Shown: piece by piece, positions 7,249 to 26,323 of the stretch
Position numbering within the stretch: position 1 is the stretch's first letter
Layout: each line of letters starts with the position of its first letter
Virus record (IMG/VR): IMGVR_UViG_2778261301_000023
Length of the DNA: 30,056 nucleotides
Source of the DNA: a virus
Taxonomy: Duplodnaviria > Heunggongvirae > Uroviricota > Caudoviricetes
Reading direction: 5' to 3' (one strand)
Program-made: the position numbers and the translations under genes
The notes under the pieces: model-generated
The model's input: the letters and a program-made list of their open reading frames with translations, nothing else
What the model was told of the DNA's origin: nothing
Databases searched by the model: none

Positions 7249-8409
7249 TTATTCAACCTCTTCTAAACTGCTCACTCTGGACCCTCGGCGGAAATTATCA
7301 TCATTTTTAACATACTCGTATGAATCCAGAATCAAACCAGATATGCGAAGTATATCTTCCGGATTAGTTATATGTATCCTTTTACCATCCGTATCAAGTC
7401 GAGCTCGTCTTATTTCATTCAACTGAACTTCACTAAGCGAAATAGGTAAAGTTATAAATGAAGATTTTTTATCATAAAATCTTAACAGCCATCTATTAGT
7501 TTTACCATTCAATAGCACACCAAAATATGACTCAGTATCTTTATATTCTATATTATCTTCTGTTTGTATGATTTGTTTTACCCTTTCAAATAGCTCCAAT
7601 TCTTTGGCTGTGGTTATTATGTTGGGGTTTTCTTCATCAACAATGGCGTTATTAACTTGTGTATCCGTTGCATCATTTTCTTTAGTTTGCTCTACCGGTT
7701 GTGTAGATAGCCCGGAAACCACCATTGCGCTAACAGCGCGCTCAACGGCCTGTTTAACTAATGGAGTCACGAACTCAAGAAATCTCTGATTAAGTTGTCT
7801 CTCAATATTTGAACGACTAGCAACATATCGAACAAACTCCAGATCAACTTCACGAAGACTAGAACTGATTGTTTTAGTAAATGAATTCAAATAAACACTT
7901 TCTTCAGCCAGTGTCCGTAAAGCCTCTGGTTTGAATTTATCATAACGAAAACGAAATAATTGTGTAATATCGGAGTGAGTTAGAGAATCCATTCTTATTT
8001 TTAAAAACGGCGTTGAATCCATTATGTTTTTTTGTTTCAAATCCGTAAAAAAACGCCATTCAACACCATTTGTAATGGCTGATATAGTAACTTCCGGTGT
8101 TGAATTAAAATATCTTGATAGCTGTGGGCAGTGATTATCAATTTGTTCTGAAAACGATTTCGCCTCAATGAACATCACAGGAACATCATGACAAAATAAA
8201 GCGTAATCAACCCGTTCATTAGCCTTAACCCCGGGGAAGTCAGCACTATACTCAGCTTTGACTTTTCTTGGATCATACGGAGTAAAACCAAGAATATCTA
8301 GTAATGGCATAATGAGTGCTTGTTTTGTCGTTTCTTCAGTTGTACAAAACACCCCCATTTTTGCAACATGCTCTGTGTGTATTTTTAACTTATTTGCAAA
8401 ATTTTCCAT
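7249..8409 (-). CDS. Stand-alone PD-(D/E)xK nuclease of the type I restriction HsdR N-terminal (HsdR_N) kind with an uncharacterised C-terminal half; AT-rich cargo gene
   Basis: N-terminal region shows the HsdR_N-type pattern: TTEETTKQALIMPLLDILGF ... RVDYALF ... VMFIEAKSF, giving candidate D and E-x-K catalytic residues. The strong GGAGGAG site lies before the second ATG (8407-8409); the track ORF extends to 8424. The gene is strikingly more AT-rich than the flanking baseplate genes and has its own terminator. Confidence 0.6.
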   Translation of the reverse strand: MENFANKLKIHTEHVAKMGVFCTTEETTKQALIMPLLDILGFTPYDPRKVKAEYSADFPGVKANERVDYALFCHDVPVMFIEAKSFSEQIDNHCPQLSRYFNSTPEVTISAITNGVEWRFFTDLKQKNIMDSTPFLKIRMDSLTHSDITQLFRFRYDKFKPEALRTLAEESVYLNSFTKTISSSLREVDLEFVRYVASRSNIERQLNQRFLEFVTPLVKQAVERAVSAMVVSGLSTQPVEQTKENDATDTQVNNAIVDEENPNIITTAKELELFERVKQIIQTEDNIEYKDTESYFGVLLNGKTNRWLLRFYDKKSSFITLPISLSEVQLNEIRRARLDTDGKRIHITNPEDILRISGLILDSYEYVKNDDNFRRGSRVSSLEEVE

Positions 8410-8437
8410 GCTTGTCTCCTCCATGGTAACAATATGT

Positions 8438-11843: not shown

Positions 11844-13922
11844 TTACCCCGGTATTTGTTGCATTCCGGCGAGTTGTGCCAGTATGTCGGAACCTGGTTT
11901 TTGTTGAACGTCGAGCCTGATTACCTGAGAAGTATTATTTGGTGAATATACGTTTCCCCGGTTCATTGCCAGCGCCCGCATCACATCATCGCCACTTACT
12001 GCACGAGCGGCGTCCCCATTTTCATGGTTAATAATGCCCTGAATTAGCTTTCTCATTATCTCAAAATTAGAACCATCGATTTTCTCCTTAACACCTAATC
12101 CGGTGTACTGAGAGAGATAGCTTTTATAGGACGATGTGTTATTTCCATCAGATGAAGGGGCATAAATATCAATAATCTGATCAATCGTATTTTTGCCGCG
12201 TTTCAGGTATAGCATTACCTGCCGATCTAAGGCAGCAATGCCTTCCAGCATCGTCGGGAAGCTGGCAAAACGGGCATTTGGCCCCGATTCCAAGGTAGCC
12301 CCTTTTTGTCCTGCGAAATTAAGATTTCCGGGATTGTTATTCCTGATCCCTCTGGATAAATATGCAGATCTGTTTACTTGATTTGAAAATCCCTGCAATC
12401 CTCCAGGCCAGACCTTACCCGGATTGTTTTTTTGCCACTCCTGCACTTCGTTAAAATAATCAAAGTTGAAACGCCCCTCCAGCCCTTTCATTTCCTCACT
12501 GGTGGTTGGTGTGTCATTTGTAGGAATAGCCAATCCAGCTACTGTTCCGGCTGTAGCCCCAAGAAGACTTCCACCAACAACACGGGCGGCAACTCCGGTC
12601 GTTGTGGCTGCCACAGCACCAACTCTCGATGGTCCAGCAAGTACTGCGGCCCCAAAAAGCCAGGGATGTTCAACCGCAAAACCAACAAACCCGCTAAGTG
12701 CCTTAACAACCTTTGCAACATTTTCGGCAAAATTATTCAGGTCGTTATTAAAATCCGGGCCATTTACATACTTACCAAGTTTATCCAGACCTGTTTCAAC
12801 ATCAGTCAAAATTCTTTTAAAGTTCTCACCGTTAAGGAAATTTAGACCAGCATTCTTTACACCATTAGATATTCTAATTAGCTGTACAGAGTTACCCGAC
12901 ATTGCCCCCTGAAATCCGCTGGTAAGTTGATCCCAGTTATTTTCTAAGTTACTGGTAAGATTCTGATACTGGCTTGTATGTCCAGAGGTAAGCAACGAGT
13001 CATTCTGAGAAGCTCGCGATAAAAACTCTTTGTTGAGTTCAGGTATTTTGTCCTGATATTTGACTAACTGGTTAGCAATACCAAAATTTACCCATCCAAG
13101 GCCACGACCTCTGAGCATGCTCTGAGTAAGTCCGGTTCCCTCATACTCCTTTGCAAGAGCAGCAACTCTTTCTAACAATACAGGAAGATTTTCTGCTGCC
13201 CCTTTTTTAGGATTTATCCCTAATCCAATTAGCCCGTTGTAAGCAGGATGCTGAGTGTCATTTTGCGCGGCTGCCAGTGTATTGAGCAAATTACCAACAC
13301 CGGAAAAATAAGGCGAATAAGTGCTTTCTGCCGCCTTTAACTCTCCTGGAGTTGCCTGCAATTCATCAGCATTTTTCTGTTTCTCTACAACATTACGAGC
13401 CATCATGCCAAAGCCAAACGGCCCGGTAACGCCCATAACCGCAAGTTTTGTCCCCCACGATACGGTGGTTTTAAACAGGTTGTTTAATCTCGAAGTGGTC
13501 GTCCGTAGCGTAGAATTGATCTGCTTGTAAGTTTTCAGCGTCTGTTTGGCGTTTTTCCCCAGCCCGCTGAGGTACTTATCAAACATCGTTTCGCCGCGAC
13601 CTTTATAGTTGCTCACCAGCGAATCAGGTGTTTTCCCGCTGCCAACAAAGCGCCATTTTTCATCCCTTAAACGTCCATCAGTGGAAGCAGCCAGAACTGG
13701 CGCGGGTGAAGATGGTTTCCTGGGAGCCTGATTGGCTTCTCCGCCTGTGGTTGTCTGCCAAGAGCCACCTCCCGGACCGGTATTTGAAGGTATTTTAAGC
13801 GGCGTACCGGCAGGGCCAATCATCAGTCCGTTGCGATACTTTTCAAATATCGCCTCAAGCCGCCTGAGGTGTTCTTCATTAACATCCAGCGTCAGAACTG
13901 GCATCTGGTTACCAGCCATCAC
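11844..13922 (-). CDS. Tail tape measure protein, 692 aa
   Basis: Largest ORF, downstream of the chaperone frameshift pair; Gly/Ala-rich hydrophobic central region, typical of tape measure proteins. Confidence 0.65.
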   Translation of the reverse strand: MMAGNQMPVLTLDVNEEHLRRLEAIFEKYRNGLMIGPAGTPLKIPSNTGPGGGSWQTTTGGEANQAPRKPSSPAPVLAASTDGRLRDEKWRFVGSGKTPDSLVSNYKGRGETMFDKYLSGLGKNAKQTLKTYKQINSTLRTTTSRLNNLFKTTVSWGTKLAVMGVTGPFGFGMMARNVVEKQKNADELQATPGELKAAESTYSPYFSGVGNLLNTLAAAQNDTQHPAYNGLIGLGINPKKGAAENLPVLLERVAALAKEYEGTGLTQSMLRGRGLGWVNFGIANQLVKYQDKIPELNKEFLSRASQNDSLLTSGHTSQYQNLTSNLENNWDQLTSGFQGAMSGNSVQLIRISNGVKNAGLNFLNGENFKRILTDVETGLDKLGKYVNGPDFNNDLNNFAENVAKVVKALSGFVGFAVEHPWLFGAAVLAGPSRVGAVAATTTGVAARVVGGSLLGATAGTVAGLAIPTNDTPTTSEEMKGLEGRFNFDYFNEVQEWQKNNPGKVWPGGLQGFSNQVNRSAYLSRGIRNNNPGNLNFAGQKGATLESGPNARFASFPTMLEGIAALDRQVMLYLKRGKNTIDQIIDIYAPSSDGNNTSSYKSYLSQYTGLGVKEKIDGSNFEIMRKLIQGIINHENGDAARAVSGDDVMRALAMNRGNVYSPNNTSQVIRLDVQQKPGSDILAQLAGMQQIPG

Positions 13923-14226
13923 AATACTCCTGCGGGATTTTTGAATTTGAGCAGCTCACGAAACTGAGCTGCTGTTTTTACATTTAGGCCGGAATCTGCA
14001 CAGATGTCTCTGAATCCGGCTCCGGCTGAGTAGTCGAGGATGTCGCTGATGACGTGTTCGCCGTCGCGCCAGAACTGGCGGCTGATTTCAATGTCGGCAA
14101 TGAAGCGATCCATTCCGTAAGATTCAATAACGAGCATTGAGTGCTCCATACTCCATTGACCACATCCATAGTCCCCTTCGCCTGCTCCGGTGAATTTATC
14201 GACGAGACGCATGTAAAAAAAATGAG
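13919..14226 (-). CDS. Tail assembly chaperone -1 frameshift extension (lambda G/GT-type fusion product)
   Basis: A 97-aa ORF in the -1 frame starts inside the chaperone gene directly after a run of eight T on the minus strand (plus 14215-14222; zero frame ..GAG CTC ATT TTT TTT ACA..) and ends overlapping the tape measure start. Confidence 0.55.
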
Positions 14227-14601
14227 CTCACCCGCCACTTCATCCAAATCAATGATTTCACGCTCCAGCGCCATATCGAGAGGGATTGTGTCGTAGCCTT
14301 TACCCTCCACTGAGTAAACAAGGTTTGCCAGGCGAATGACCTCATTAACAAGTGTATTACGGACCCCTTTATCACCTTCCCAGATATTAGAATCACGCGA
14401 GATCCGCTCCAGCATCAAAAAAGCGATACGCGGACCCGCAACGACGCCAAGACCTTCTGAAAAAATGGCAGAAAAAGTTTTACTCAGAATGAAGAAATGC
14501 TCTTTAAACACCTCTTTGCTGATCGGCGTGGCATGGATCCAGCCATTACCCTTTTCTGTCCGGACAGGAATAATCAGGTTTAAATTTCGAGCGATTTTCA
14601 T
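13984..14601 (-). CDS. Tail assembly chaperone, zero-frame product
   Basis: Between tail tube and tape measure. Start at the internal Met (MKIARNL) gives an ATGA overlap with the tube gene stop. Contains the T8 slippery run. Confidence 0.55.
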   Translation of the reverse strand: MKIARNLNLIIPVRTEKGNGWIHATPISKEVFKEHFFILSKTFSAIFSEGLGVVAGPRIAFLMLERISRDSNIWEGDKGVRNTLVNEVIRLANLVYSVEGKGYDTIPLDMALEREIIDLDEVAGELIFFTCVSSINSPEQAKGTMDVVNGVWSTQCSLLNLTEWIASLPTLKSAASSGATANTSSATSSTTQPEPDSETSVQIPA

Positions 14602-15041
14602 ACCAGATCCCACATTTCAGAGTTGATGTAATACGTACCAGTAATGGTGATGGCCACACCCGGCTCGCCCCCGGCGAAGGTCATATCCTGCACGTTGGTG
14701 ATCGCCGTGTTATAGATATCGAAGTCACCGAACACCGTGCTGTCGCTATACACTTTTGCGTCGCCGATCGTGGCATTCTTTTCCCATTGCGCCTTGAATT
14801 GTTTTCCCAGCGCCTGGCTACGCAGCAGATGAACACGCGCCTGTAAAATCATGTATGGCTGCGGCGACTGCACGGCTCCCGTCATAGCGGGTAAAAACTC
14901 CGTGATATTGCCCTGAAAGGACAATTCGACGCCTTCTTTTGCCAGAAATGAGGCGGACACATTCAGTTCAGAATGGGAGGTGAATTTAACGCTGGCGCGA
15001 ACCCGGTTAAGGGTGCCAACGGGGATCATTGGATTAGGCAC
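14598..15041 (-). CDS. Tail tube protein, 147 aa
   Basis: Position directly after the sheath gene; size. Confidence 0.55.
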   Translation of the reverse strand: MPNPMIPVGTLNRVRASVKFTSHSELNVSASFLAKEGVELSFQGNITEFLPAMTGAVQSPQPYMILQARVHLLRSQALGKQFKAQWEKNATIGDAKVYSDSTVFGDFDIYNTAITNVQDMTFAGGEPGVAITITGTYYINSEMWDLV

Positions 15042-15052
15042 GGTTCAGTCCC

Positions 15053-16390
15053 TCACGAAAGCTGCATTGTCACATTGATGTTAAAAATGATTTCGACAAA
15101 TCCGCGCATCGGCGTATAGGAGGCCGAAAGGCCTGCATAACGCCCGATACCGTAATCATTGGGATTAGTGTTGATATACTGGCGGAAAGGCACTGCATCG
15201 ACGACAGGCTGACCGTTGACCAGGCCGTAAGATACGCCCGTATTGAACACCGCCTGTGCGACCTGCTGTAGACGGTCGATCCCGTCCTGGTTGTAGTAAA
15301 GCGGGTTAATTGAGTTATTGCTGCCGTTGATCACCGTGTTGGCGAGCTGCATATCGACATTAATCTGCACCCAGTCCACGGAATACCAGTACGTCATATC
15401 GTTACCGTCACTGGTAACGCCTTTCACCAGAATCGTGTTGGAAATTCCCCCCTCAGCCCCCGTGTCGACGTAGTTAATATTCTGCTTCGTCATCGTGACC
15501 AGAATTGAATTTTTGCCCGTGTGGGCGTTTACCGCCTGTAGATAGCGAAATGCCATCGGCGGCACCTTGTTGATTTCTGAAGGTGATGCGGAAACATAGT
15601 TCCACATTACGGCTGCTGCCGCGTTTGTCGCCGGGTACGTATCATCCGCCGTTGCAATAACCGACTTAATACCGGCATAAGGCGAAACGTAATTCGTGTC
15701 GTCCGGCGTTTTCGTCAGCACGAAGAAATACTGCATCGCTTCGTTGGCGGTGTGGAGTTTTGCCAGACTGATAAACTCTGCGTCACCATCCCACGGCTGC
15801 GGCACCAGATACGCATAAAAACGCAGGAGCGGATCTTCCATATAAGCTTTCAGTGCAGCGATTTCCTTACTGACTCCACCTTTCTGTACTCCCAGCTCCA
15901 GCAGGTAAATCCCAACTGAATTTCCCTGGGCAAAAAACGTGTTTACTGCCGTCACCAGATTTTCACTGCCAACAATGGAAAACTGCCCCAGTGTCACTGG
16001 CGAACCGGAAAGCTGAGAATCAGCAATCGTCCAAGTCAGTGTTTTTTCATCCGTGACGGTAGCAGTATATTCGCCATTCCACGCGTCGGGCGAACACCCG
16101 GAAACAACAATTTTCACCTCAGAACTGTTTTCGCGTCGGATGTTGCTCCCTTCCGGAAGCGTCATCGTAACGGTGACGTTTGCCGCAGATTTTCCTGCAG
16201 CAGCCGCCGACAACGCAGCAATCGGATTTCTTACCAGATCGTTAATATCCTGATTACGGGTGAGTAATACAGGCTTTCCCGGCTCATGAGTCGTGGAGCC
16301 AAACGAGAGAACAGCGGACATCTGCTGCGAATTCGAGGGAATGGCCCCGATGGTCTGGGACACATTCACCGTGACGATATTAAACCCCAT
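15053..16390 (-). CDS. Tail sheath protein, 445 aa
   Basis: Size and position immediately before the tube and chaperone genes in a contractile-tail cluster. Confidence 0.6.
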   Translation of the reverse strand: MGFNIVTVNVSQTIGAIPSNSQQMSAVLSFGSTTHEPGKPVLLTRNQDINDLVRNPIAALSAAAAGKSAANVTVTMTLPEGSNIRRENSSEVKIVVSGCSPDAWNGEYTATVTDEKTLTWTIADSQLSGSPVTLGQFSIVGSENLVTAVNTFFAQGNSVGIYLLELGVQKGGVSKEIAALKAYMEDPLLRFYAYLVPQPWDGDAEFISLAKLHTANEAMQYFFVLTKTPDDTNYVSPYAGIKSVIATADDTYPATNAAAAVMWNYVSASPSEINKVPPMAFRYLQAVNAHTGKNSILVTMTKQNINYVDTGAEGGISNTILVKGVTSDGNDMTYWYSVDWVQINVDMQLANTVINGSNNSINPLYYNQDGIDRLQQVAQAVFNTGVSYGLVNGQPVVDAVPFRQYINTNPNDYGIGRYAGLSASYTPMRGFVEIIFNINVTMQLS

Positions 16391-25242: not shown

Positions 25243-26323
25243 TATCCACTCCCGGCATCGGCAGAGAGTTGTGGATAATTATTTCGTTATTCTCACCACC
25301 CACGCCTTTTTTGAGGTTTTCAATCTCAGTGCGCAGCTTTTCGTTGCGAAGCCTCAGTCCTTCAAGCTCCAGATCATTGCGACTGTCAGTTGCACCACCA
25401 GCAGAACTTCCTTTCGTCGCCATTATCAGCTTGATAAGTTCGCGCCGGGCGGCAGCCTTATCCTCCAGCAGGATCTCAACACCAAATTTCCCGAGCTTTG
25501 CCCCTGCATATAATTGTCGCGCATCCCCATCAAGCAGAGTGGTATCAGCCATATAAAGCTGTCCCGTTCCCTCACCGCAGCACTTCGGACAATCCGGATT
25601 GGGTATGGCGTTATCAACAAAGCCGAGGCCTCCATATTCCGGCTCGGGTTTGCCATCTCTGGAGGCCTGTGCCGCTGCCTTATCGAATTCTGCAATATCA
25701 CGCCACTGGTAGAGATGATTCTCGCCCCAGCAATAACGGCAGTTAACACGGCGAAATTGTGCCAACTGATTGGGGTCGGCCTGGACAATAGCCATCAACT
25801 GACTCACCAGTAAATCCAGGTCTGCGGTATAGCGTTTCTGATACTGATTGCGGAAGTAGCTGATAGCACGATAAACCCTGGCATTTCTAAGCATACGGCT
25901 GGCGTTGCTGTTAGCTGTCGCACCTTGCCCCTCATAACCAGCCAGTCGGTATGCCTCTGTCGGCTTTTTCCCCTGAGCAACAAGCATCGCAAACTTAGCC
26001 TGCTGGTCAGAAATGCCGAATTCATCGGGGCAGAACGAAAATTCCTCCGCGTCGCCCTCATTCAGGCACGCATCGGATACTGGCTTTTTTTTCTGAGATT
26101 TTCCGTTCCGCTTTTGCGCAGTCTGCGCAGATTTTTTCTGCGCACTTTGTTGCGCAGTTTTGCGCATTTCTGTCTGCGCATTTTTCGGAGGTTTTTTGAT
26201 GTAACGACGGGCTGTTGCGTAATTCAGTCCCCTTGCCTCACACCATGCCACCGGAGATACACCGGAGCGGGTGTATTCAGCAATATATTCCTGCTGCAAC
26301 GCCCCCCAGTCCGGTCTGCTCAT
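25232..26323 (-). CDS. Terminase small subunit, 363 aa
   Basis: Immediately upstream of and overlapping the large subunit gene; N-terminal helix-turn-helix-like segment; basic repetitive linker; Cys cluster CPKCCGEG. Confidence 0.55.
   Translation of the reverse strand: MSRPDWGALQQEYIAEYTRSGVSPVAWCEARGLNYATARRYIKKPPKNAQTEMRKTAQQSAQKKSAQTAQKRNGKSQKKKPVSDACLNEGDAEEFSFCPDEFGISDQQAKFAMLVAQGKKPTEAYRLAGYEGQGATANSNASRMLRNARVYRAISYFRNQYQKRYTADLDLLVSQLMAIVQADPNQLAQFRRVNCRYCWGENHLYQWRDIAEFDKAAAQASRDGKPEPEYGGLGFVDNAIPNPDCPKCCGEGTGQLYMADTTLLDGDARQLYAGAKLGKFGVEILLEDKAAARRELIKLIMATKGSSAGGATDSRNDLELEGLRLRNEKLRTEIENLKKGVGGENNEIIIHNSLPMPGVDNVD
26115..26180. repeat. Array of six TGCGCA hexamers at 9-15 bp spacing inside the small terminase gene
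   Basis: TGCGCA at 26115, 26124, 26139, 26151, 26161 and 26175; includes the palindrome TCTGCGCAGA. Encodes the repeated peptide AQKKSAQTAQK. Confidence 0.5.

What the first reader, a model, noticed from the sequence alone, without database searches (positions are those of the whole stretch)
13919..14613. Programmed -1 ribosomal frameshift site (U8 run) in the tail assembly chaperone gene
A run of eight T on the coding strand (plus 14215-14222) lies in the zero-frame codons ATT TTT TTT ACA, and the -1 frame ORF (MRLVDKF...) begins immediately after it and runs 97 codons to overlap the tape measure start. This is the conserved G/GT-type arrangement of tailed phages, so a fusion product of about 230 aa is expected.
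Basis: partly seen in the sequence, partly recalled or inferred. Interest (0 to 1): 0.5.

Follow-up and report, generated by a model that had tools for sequence, protein, structure and literature searches.

The report
Frameshift site in phage tail chaperone
A run of eight T's in a prophage tail-assembly gene is a conserved slip site that lets ribosomes make two proteins with the same front half and different back halves; unusually, about 230 bases are read in two frames, and public records annotate none of this.

Summary
On the minus strand, the gene between the tail tube and the tape measure (ATG 14601 to stop 13984, 205 aa) contains ATT TTT TTT ACA at 14222-14215. The -1 frame opens two codons upstream, runs 98 codons and ends in TGATG on the tape-measure start.

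The heptamer U_UUU_UUU sits in the same codon register in 12 lineages that share under 50% identity. These include four isolated phages, and one lineage has 67% G+C. The -1 ORF has no conserved start codon and encodes a conserved domain. A programmed -1 frameshift giving a 227-aa fusion is therefore well supported by comparison. No expression data were examined.

It differs from lambda G/GT and P2 E/E+E'. There, the zero frame stops about 6 codons after the slip. Here it continues for 76 codons (54-76 in relatives). That tail is conserved and is predicted with high confidence to complete the fold. The slip site lies inside a predicted helix.

So the two products carry alternative C-terminal modules encoded by a dual-coding stretch. 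No stimulatory RNA structure was found. The family matches nothing in Pfam, NCBIfam or PDB, and every record calls it hypothetical. Transcriptional slippage cannot be excluded.

The parts
13984..14601 (-). Zero-frame chaperone ORF ('G-long', 205 aa): ATG 14601-14599 overlaps the tube stop (ATGA); stop TAA 13986-13984
   Evidence: RefSeq annotates it as a hypothetical protein. It matches phrog_11810 at 2e-89. AF2 gives pLDDT above 90 for residues 10-170.
14215..14222 (-). T8 run; the slippery heptamer U_UUU_UUU occupies 14221-14215 (P-site UUU, A-site UUU), at codons F128-F129
   Evidence: Conserved in register in 12 lineages. Synonymous positions are fixed as T.
14228..14230 (-). Last stop (TGA) in the -1 frame before the run; it limits the productive shift window to the two codons before the T run
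13919..14215 (-). -1 frame extension ('T-like' domain): 98 sense codons starting with TAC (14215-14213), stop TGA 13921-13919. The 97-aa ORF from ATG 14212 is its ORF-finder form.
   Evidence: It matches phrog_14324 at 2e-62. Conserved motifs are ELYG..F..DIDR.R.FWRDG..LDW..EGF..EFRQRY. Public records leave it unannotated.
13984..14214 (-). Dual-coding stretch: 76 zero-frame codons and the first 77 or so -1-frame codons are read from the same DNA
   Evidence: Both frames are open and conserved in 12 lineages. The joint probability that each frame stays open, given the other frame's protein, is about 1e-12 and 1e-14. No codon position varies freely. 128 of 150 cluster representatives carry the zero-frame tail.
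11844..13919 (-). Tape measure protein with a C-terminal lytic transglycosylase (SLT) domain. ATG 13919-13917 is coupled to the -1 ORF stop (TGATG); AGGAG lies at 13931-13927.
   Evidence: phrog_7694, phrog_2276 tape measure; SLT annotation
14598..15041 (-). Tail tube candidate (147 aa by ORF finder; 143 aa in RefSeq)
   Evidence: phrog_6566. Position after the sheath is conserved in relatives.
15053..16390 (-). Tail sheath (445 aa)
   Evidence: phrog_205 tail sheath, 5e-53

Best explanation
The gene between the tube and the tape measure of this E. coli myovirus-type prophage is a tail assembly chaperone. It is decoded in two ways.

Most ribosomes read straight through ATT TTT TTT ACA and make a 205-aa protein. 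Residues 130-170 of that protein complete a compact alpha/beta fold, and a disordered Ser/Thr-rich tail follows.

A minority of ribosomes hold tRNA-Phe on UUU in both the P and A sites. These slip back one base on U_UUU_UUU (14221-14215) and re-pair perfectly. They read TAC (Tyr) and continue for 98 codons in the -1 frame. The result is a 227-aa protein with the same first 129 residues and a different, conserved C-terminal domain. Translation of this form ends on the tape-measure start codon.

By analogy with lambda G/GT and P2 E/E+E', the two forms would together coat the tape measure and recruit the tube, at a ratio fixed by the slip frequency.

Shown by the analysis: the sequence anatomy, conservation of the heptamer and of both reading frames, the lack of a start codon for the -1 ORF in relatives, and the gene order.

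Inferred: that slippage occurs, that it is ribosomal, its efficiency, and the chaperone function.
For: Anatomy:
- Searches give the coordinates, frames and junction.

Slip site conservation:
- T8 is present in 7 of 7 close relatives at 86-99.8% nucleotide identity, with substitutions on both sides of it.
- The in-register heptamer is present in 12 lineages below 50% protein identity: T7 in 3, T8 in 8, T9 in 1.
- These lineages include Klebsiella phage Chronis, Pantoea phage PdC23, Yersinia phage vB_YenM_21.09 and Shewanella phage QDWS.
- In the T7 lineages the run starts at codon position 3, which leaves exactly X_XXY_YYZ.
- The synonymous positions are T everywhere, including a 67% G+C locus whose other Phe codons are TTC.

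The -1 ORF:
- It has no Met in most relatives. It is about 33% identical across lineages, with invariant YG, GF and R.
- It ends at or next to the tape-measure start.

The zero-frame tail:
- It is about 39% identical across lineages. W152 is nearly invariant and L168 is invariant.
- 128 of 150 cluster representatives carry it.
- AF2 gives pLDDT 91-96 for residues 120-170.

Both frames and the fusion:
- Each frame staying open, given the other frame's protein, has a joint probability of about 1e-12 and 1e-14.
- The exact fusion occurs as one ORF in rare T9 variants (P0001: 6 contigs, against over 2,000 for the 205-aa forms).

Synteny and slipperiness:
- The order sheath, tube, this gene, SLT tape measure holds throughout.
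- U_UU.U_UU.U frameshifts at over 0.1% in E. coli without stimulators, and H_HH.U_UU.Y motifs are among the most efficient (PMC4066793).
Against: - No expression data of any kind were examined.
- No downstream stimulatory structure was found. Folding z-scores range from -1.4 to +1.0 in 11 lineages, with no shared shape, and Rfam gave no match.
- Upstream SD-like GAGG/GGTG strings are present in most lineages, but they are confounded by the conserved E-V-E-G peptide.
- The chaperone role therefore rests on gene position and the recoding signature alone.
- Runs of 7-9 U can also cause RNA polymerase slippage, which would give the identical protein.
- Three relatives (T9, T9, T6) have the fusion in the zero frame and the other tail in +1. 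A pure -1 ribosomal model does not explain these if they are functional.
Confidence: 0.8

Rival explanations
1. Transcriptional slippage is the main route. RNA polymerase adds one U while copying the A7-9 template run, so a fraction of mRNAs carry U9 and encode the fusion in a single frame. The ribosome does not slip.
For: - The run is a pure homopolymer of 7-9 in all lineages.
- UUUUUUU is under-represented in all three frames of E. coli genes. The authors attribute this to transcriptional slippage or indels (PMC4066793).
- The T9 and T6 relatives keep both tails intact with the frames exchanged. Slippage in either direction at the RNA level could serve both layouts.
- No ribosomal stimulator was found.
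Against: - The run always ends on the same codon boundary. When shortened to T7 it keeps exactly the X_XXY_YYZ register. RNA polymerase has no reason to respect that register.
- From general knowledge, not tested here: efficient polymerase slippage in E. coli needs runs of about 9 or more, and T7-T8 is short for that.
- Lambda G/GT also works without a stimulatory structure.
Confidence: 0.15
2. The run is a heritable length switch. T8 and T9 genomes interconvert by replication slippage, and each genome makes only one of the two proteins. A mixed phage population, or complementation between genomes, then supplies both.
For: - T9 variants of the same prophage were found in 6 assemblies.
- T9 and T6 forms occur in three distant relatives.
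Against: - The variants are rare: 6 contigs against over 2,000 for the 205-aa forms.
- The distant 'fused' forms were picked as cluster representatives, which may simply favour longer sequences. That is my inference.
- Most are single short contigs from read-archive assemblies, so assembly error is possible.
- A single infecting genome must assemble tails on its own.
Confidence: 0.03
3. These are two separate genes. The 97-aa ORF is translated independently from its own ATG (14212), and the T run is incidental.
For: An ATG follows the run in the E. coli clade. PHROGs holds the 97-aa ORF as a family of its own.
Against: - There is no Shine-Dalgarno sequence before that ATG. The 8 bases upstream are the T run, and GGTGAG is 17 nt away.
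- The Met is absent in nearly all distant relatives, where the -1 frame reads FFY(L/S/A/C).. with no start codon at all.
- The heptamer is conserved at synonymous sites.
Confidence: 0.01
4. It is a frameshift mutation, pseudogene or sequencing error in what should be a single 227-aa gene.
For: Adding one T fuses the frames, and such sequences exist.
Against: - The split layout is the rule across the family: 128 of 139 non-fragment cluster representatives.
- It holds in 92 complete E. coli genomes and in four isolated viable phages.
- The zero-frame tail is itself conserved and predicted to fold.
Confidence: 0.01

Closest known systems
Phage lambda gpG / gpGT tail assembly chaperones (Levin 1993; Xu, Hendrix & Duda 2004, 2013, 2014, as summarised in PMC5009743)
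   Same: - Two overlapping frames lie between the major tail/tube gene and the tape measure.
- A -1 slip on a heptamer gives a fusion that shares the N-terminus.
- The downstream frame has no start of its own and abuts the tape-measure gene.
- No RNA stimulator is evident.
   Different: - In lambda the slip is at the very end of G. The G and T ORFs overlap by 19 nt, so G is nested within GT.
- Here 76 zero-frame codons (37% of the protein) follow the slip. They are conserved and predicted to be part of the fold.
- The heptamer is U_UUU_UUU rather than G_GGA_AAG.
- There is no detectable sequence homology.
- The virus has a contractile tail.
Phage P2 gpE / gpE+E' (annotated in AF063097)
   Same: - Contractile-tail phage with the order sheath, tube, chaperone, tape measure.
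- The slippery site is a T run (GGT TTT TTG).
- The -1 extension overlaps the tape-measure start.
   Different: - P2 gpE is 91 aa and stops 20 nt after the slip.
- The shared part here is 129 aa, and the zero frame continues for 229 nt.
- There is no detectable homology (hhalign probability 0.3%).
Recoding that swaps C-termini over a longer overlap: dnaX tau/gamma and IS3-family OrfA/OrfAB
   Same: A slippery heptamer inside a coding region yields two proteins with a common N-terminal part and different C-terminal ends at a fixed ratio.
   Different: - dnaX frameshifting only truncates the protein.
- IS3 elements use strong stimulators such as a pseudoknot or SD (PMC4066793). None was found here.
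- Both alternative tails here are sizeable conserved modules.
Transcriptional slippage sites on A/T runs (reviewed in PMC5009743)
   Same: A homopolymer run of 7-9 sits at the junction of two frames. Variants of different run length keep both frames intact.
   Different: Codon register is conserved down to a 7-mer. From general knowledge, typical efficient slippage runs are 9 or longer.

Membership tests
G/GT-type frameshifted tail assembly chaperone (functional class, Xu et al. 2004) | Located between the major tail/tube gene and the tape measure gene | tested here: met
   The order sheath (phrog_205), tube candidate, this gene, SLT tape measure holds in the window and in distant loci.
G/GT-type frameshifted tail assembly chaperone (functional class, Xu et al. 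2004) | A second ORF in another frame, without its own initiation signals, extends to the tape-measure gene | tested here: met
   The -1 frame is open for 98 codons to TGATG. Relatives have no conserved start codon. The window has an ATG but no SD.
G/GT-type frameshifted tail assembly chaperone (functional class, Xu et al. 2004) | A conserved slippery sequence lies in the overlap of the two frames | tested here: met
   U_UUU_UUU is in register in 12 lineages. Synonymous sites are fixed.
G/GT-type frameshifted tail assembly chaperone (functional class, Xu et al. 2004) | [quoted passage not shown] | tested here: not met
   76 zero-frame codons follow the slip (54-76 in relatives). Lambda has a 19-nt overlap and P2 20 nt.
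G/GT-type frameshifted tail assembly chaperone (functional class, Xu et al. 2004) | Both products are made at a fixed ratio, are required for tail assembly and are absent from virions | not testable with these tools
   This needs protein and genetic experiments.
Homology families of gpG / gpE / Pfam tail-assembly-chaperone models | Detectable sequence or fold similarity | tested here: not met
-1 programmed ribosomal frameshift signal (X_XXY_YYZ plus stimulator) | Heptamer allowing both tRNAs to re-pair in the -1 frame | tested here: met
   T_TTT_TTT at 14221-14215 is in register. The motif class is frameshift-prone in E. coli (PMC4066793).
-1 programmed ribosomal frameshift signal (X_XXY_YYZ plus stimulator) | Downstream hairpin or pseudoknot, or an upstream SD-like stimulator | tested here: inconclusive
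   No structure exceeded shuffles and none was shared between lineages. SD-like strings lie 6-22 nt upstream in most lineages but coincide with a conserved peptide. Not all known sites have a stimulator.
Transcriptional slippage site | mRNA population heterogeneous in run length | not testable with these tools
   This needs cDNA sequencing. Run length of 7-9 and conserved register argue against it as the main route.

The most novel reading that the evidence does not exclude
This is not a nested G-within-GT pair but a module swap. In a large family of contractile-tail phages and prophages, a mid-domain slip inside a predicted helix exchanges one conserved C-terminal module for another. The family gave 626 cluster hits and spans Enterobacteriaceae, Shewanella, alphaproteobacterial MAGs and one MAG labelled Candidatus Limnocylindrus. 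The two modules are encoded in 54-76 codons of true dual-coding DNA. The short form's own tail would then have a function that the long form lacks. The homopolymer may also work in both directions, through T8 and T9/T6 genotypes.
Probability: 0.5. Interest if true: 0.55.

Novelty: new variant of a known kind. Interest (0 to 1): 0.45.

Why it matters
**Annotation.** The -1 product is missing from every record examined. These are RefSeq E. coli genomes and the phages Rac-SA53, pPE4, Chronis, PdC23, vB_YenM_21.09 and QDWS. The records show only a 'hypothetical protein' followed by an apparent gap of 57-129 nt before the tape measure (64 nt in the E. coli records). The family has no Pfam or NCBIfam model, and in PHROGs it has only 'unknown function' families.

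**Biology.** The site extends the conserved tail-chaperone frameshift to a family with no detectable homology to gpG or gpE. It also shows a layout in which the slip occurs 37% before the end of the zero-frame protein. The two isoforms therefore differ by whole modules, and about 230 nt is under double coding constraint. This makes a compact natural system for two questions: how the two chaperone forms divide the labour of binding the tape measure and recruiting the tube, and how overlapping frames co-evolve.

**Prediction tools.** It is a useful test case for frameshift predictors that look for slip sites in short overlaps between adjacent called genes.

Tried and rejected
- **Locus search.** The search for related loci with the 25-sequence alignment failed because no conserved 7-10 column stretch was found. 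A smaller alignment gave only 6 loci.
- **Missing DNA.** Four contig look-ups returned no DNA because the ENA samples have no file. The 'YFT/YFI' junction variants (P0245, P0206) therefore could not be read at DNA level.
- **Fusion structure.** The allowed shallow alignment gave a T-like domain at pLDDT 40-65 only, so I did not fold-search it.
- **afdb50.** This library was unavailable.
- **dN/dS within the E. coli clade.** This does not separate the two frames in the overlap. pN/pS was 0.69 for the zero frame and 0.60 for the -1 frame, against 1.86 for the third frame and 0.13 for the N-terminal part. In that output the row 'overlap_f+1' is the true zero frame and 'overlap_f0' is the third frame, because I mis-set the offset.
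- **Downstream RNA structure.** Searched in 11 lineages and against Rfam; nothing found.
- **Other in-register heptamers in the ORF.** They lie at 14587, 14584, 14554 and 14422, all upstream of the last -1-frame stop (14230-14228), so a slip there cannot reach the long -1 ORF. The one at 14422 is also not conserved in relatives.
- **C-terminal S-[VIL]-P motif of the zero-frame tail.** I considered it a docking peptide. By my own reading of the two frames, in most relatives it is the alternative reading of the conserved (I/V)VSA codons of the -1 frame. Its conservation may therefore be a by-product.
- **Literature.** Papers on Chronis/Roth and the Yersinia phages mention no frameshift or chaperone. 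I did not find Xu et al. 2004 in the library, so I could not check whether any of its 28 cases has a comparably long overlap.
Full report
**What is in the window**

All genes of this region are on the minus strand. Their order is:
- tail sheath (16390-15053; phrog_205, 5e-53);
- a 147-aa tube candidate (15041-14598);
- the gene in question;
- a 692-aa tape measure with a C-terminal lytic transglycosylase (SLT) domain (13919-11844);
- baseplate and fibre genes.

The gene starts at ATG 14601, overlapping the tube stop as ATGA, and its zero frame runs to TAA 13986-13984 (205 aa). Codons 127-130 are ATT TTT TTT ACA. The T8 run is therefore 14222-14215, and the in-register heptamer T_TTT_TTT is 14221-14215.

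In the -1 frame the last upstream stop is TGA at 14230-14228. From the run onward that frame is open for 98 codons, to TGA 13921-13919. That stop shares its A with the tape-measure ATG (TGATG), and AGGAG lies 7 nt upstream of the ATG. The predicted fusion is 227 aa with the junction ..GELIFF-Y-MRLVDK... The two corrections are the start codon (ATG 14601, not GTG 14613) and the unnoticed fact that the zero frame carries on for 76 more codons.

**Is it more than chance?**

A T8 run alone is not significant. The window has two A/T runs of 8 or more, and about three are expected. The weight comes from comparison with relatives.

The window is an E. coli prophage present in 92 of 5,426 complete genomes. 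It is related to Escherichia phage Rac-SA53 and to a phage deposited as Actinobacillus phage vB_Apl-pPE4. All seven fetched relatives (86-99.8% identity) keep T8 while the bases on either side vary.

A search of 1.84 billion cluster representatives found 626 relatives. I obtained DNA for 11 further lineages with the same frame layout, all below 50% protein identity to one another:
- metagenomic and MAG loci labelled Pseudomonadota, Sphingomonadaceae, Acetobacteraceae, Saccharibacter and Candidatus Limnocylindrus;
- four isolated phages: Klebsiella Chronis, Pantoea PdC23, Yersinia vB_YenM_21.09 and Shewanella QDWS.

Counting the window's own clade, that makes 12 canonical lineages, and every one has the heptamer in the same codon register. 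The run is T8 in eight, T9 in one and T7 in three. In the T7 cases the run begins at codon position 3, so exactly X_XXY_YYZ is retained.

The three synonymous positions involved are T in every lineage. Elsewhere in the same genes, TTT is 63% of Phe codons and T is 26% of third positions. In the 67% G+C locus third-position T is only 5%.

**The -1 frame is a real coding frame, reachable only by recoding**

Across lineages the -1 extension is 92-115 codons long and about 33% identical. It has invariant YG, GF and R, and the motif ELYG..F..DIDR.R.FWRDG..LDW..EGF..EFRQRY. It ends at or next to the tape-measure start.

It has no start codon in most lineages, where the frame reads FFY(L/S/A/C)... 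The ATG at 14212 is peculiar to the enterobacterial clade and has no SD. Independent translation is therefore rejected.

Rare T9 variants of the very same prophage encode exactly the predicted 227-aa fusion as one ORF. That protein (P0001) is on 6 contigs, against more than 2,000 contigs for the 205-aa forms.

**The unexpected part: the zero frame after the slip is also a real coding frame**

In lambda the G and T ORFs overlap by 19 nt. In P2 the annotated slip is 20 nt before the E stop. Here 76 codons follow the slip, and 54-76 do so in relatives.

Several lines of evidence show that this tail is under selection:
- It is present in 128 of the 150 best cluster representatives. Eleven of the rest are fragments and eleven carry the other domain.
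- It is about 39% identical across lineages. W152 is nearly invariant and L168 is invariant, within a motif FF(T/I)..S....(K/R)......L.....LWG...T.L..TEY..SL.
- Its best-conserved part (residues 130-155) lies over the least conserved part of the -1 frame. Its conservation there is therefore not a shadow of the other frame.
- AlphaFold2 with the family alignment gives pLDDT 91-96 for residues 120-170. It places F128-F129 inside helix 119-135, followed by helix 138-152, a strand and helix 161-167. Residues 174-196 are disordered.
- I kept one frame's protein and resampled synonymous codons. The other frame stayed open with per-lineage probability 0.004-0.56. The joint values over 12 lineages are about 1e-12 for the zero-frame tail and 1e-14 for the -1 frame.
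- Within the E. coli clade no codon position in the overlap varies freely. Variable sites number 20, 10 and 18 by position, against 15, 8 and 64 in the N-terminal part. pN/pS is 0.69 and 0.60 for the two frames, against 0.13 upstream (with the labelling correction given under 'tried and rejected').

The two products therefore share 129 residues and then carry alternative modules.

**Mechanism**

The heptamer allows perfect re-pairing of two tRNA-Phe in the -1 frame. Published E. coli measurements put U_UU.U_UU.U above 0.1% without stimulators, and H_HH.U_UU.Y among the most efficient classes (PMC4066793).

I found no downstream structure. For the window, folding z-scores were -0.2 and +0.9, and ten relatives gave -1.4 to +1.0 with no common fold. 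Rfam gave no match. Lambda's site is likewise described as low-level frameshifting (PMC5009743).

SD-like strings (GAGG, GGAGGT, GGTGA) lie 6-22 nt upstream in most lineages. They coincide with a conserved E-V-E-G peptide, so I cannot tell whether they are signals.

Transcriptional slippage on the U7-9 run would yield the identical protein and is not excluded. The strict conservation of register down to a 7-mer favours the ribosome.

Three relatives (T9, T9, T6) have the fusion in the zero frame and an intact copy of the other tail in +1. They may be mutants or assembly errors. They may also have surfaced only because longer sequences tend to become cluster representatives, which is my inference. 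If they are real they would need +1 or -2 shifts, or RNA-level slippage.

**Comparison with known systems**

Functionally and positionally this is the conserved tail-chaperone frameshift of long-tailed phages, and it is closest in style to P2 E/E+E' (contractile tail, T-run slip). It is not a detectable homologue of either known pair:
- Pfam and NCBIfam gave no hits.
- PDB profile searches gave no match for the 205-aa form and only two sub-threshold hits to designed helical repeats for the fusion profile.
- hhalign against lambda G and P2 E gave probability below 1%.
- Foldseek against viral models gave only weak hits, though several were annotated tail assembly chaperones.

The class feature 'slip near the end of the upstream gene' is not met.

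All public records examined annotate a single hypothetical protein and leave the -1 ORF as an apparent intergenic gap. The papers I could search on these phages do not mention the frameshift.

**Verdict**

It is an unannotated instance of a well-known recoding strategy, in a family with no recognised homology to the known chaperones. It has an unusual long dual-coding overlap that turns the nested G/GT pair into two isoforms with alternative C-terminal modules.

My confidence is about 0.8 that recoding at this run produces the fusion, about 0.65 that the slip is ribosomal, and about 0.75 that the proteins are tail assembly chaperones.

Noticed in passing
window 26085-26092 (minus strand), inside ORF 26323-25232: This is the only other homopolymer of 8 or more in the window. 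It reads CAG AAA AAA AAG CCA in frame, giving an in-register A_AAA_AAG heptamer, the dnaX-type motif. It lies in a 363-aa ORF next to the large terminase. The -1 frame stops after about 10 codons, so a slip would give a product truncated to roughly a quarter of the ORF's length. I did not check conservation in relatives.
   Followed up: partly
L008 3398-3406; L016 899-907; L017 1877-1882; L026/L027 1180-1188: These relatives have T9 or T6 instead of T8. The N-terminal part is in frame with the T-like domain, and the other tail is intact in the +1 frame. It is unclear whether they are functional genotypes, mutants or assembly errors.
   Followed up: partly
L020 1885-2385 and L021 1133-1633: In one metagenomic relative, a 166-aa ORF with a weak HNH_3 (PF13392) hit lies between the chaperone gene and the SLT tape measure. 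The slip site is kept, as T9.
   Followed up: no
window 14416-14422 (minus strand): A second in-register heptamer, T_TTT_TTG (the P2 type), lies in the N-terminal part of the same gene. It lies upstream of the last -1-frame stop (14230-14228), so a slip there cannot reach the long -1 ORF. It is not conserved in relatives (GCTTTTCTG, GCCTGCCTT), so it is probably chance.
   Followed up: yes
window 7249-8424 (minus strand): A 391-aa ORF matches phrog_4225 (endonuclease, 5e-149). It sits among the baseplate and tail-fibre genes, between the hub and wedge homologues. It may be a mobile or accessory insertion.
   Followed up: no
public records PP818812.1; NZ_CP026085.1 and NZ_CM135829.1: A phage deposited as Actinobacillus pleuropneumoniae phage vB_Apl-pPE4 is 90% identical to this E. 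coli prophage. Two assemblies labelled E. coli DH5alpha match this region at the same identity (86.8%) and score as E. coli W. Host or strain labels may be wrong.
   Followed up: no
P0245, P0262, P0206 (protein level only): Three cluster representatives read YFT or YFI instead of FF(T/I) at the junction, so the T run must be interrupted there. Their DNA could not be fetched, so it is unknown what replaces the slippery heptamer.
   Followed up: partly
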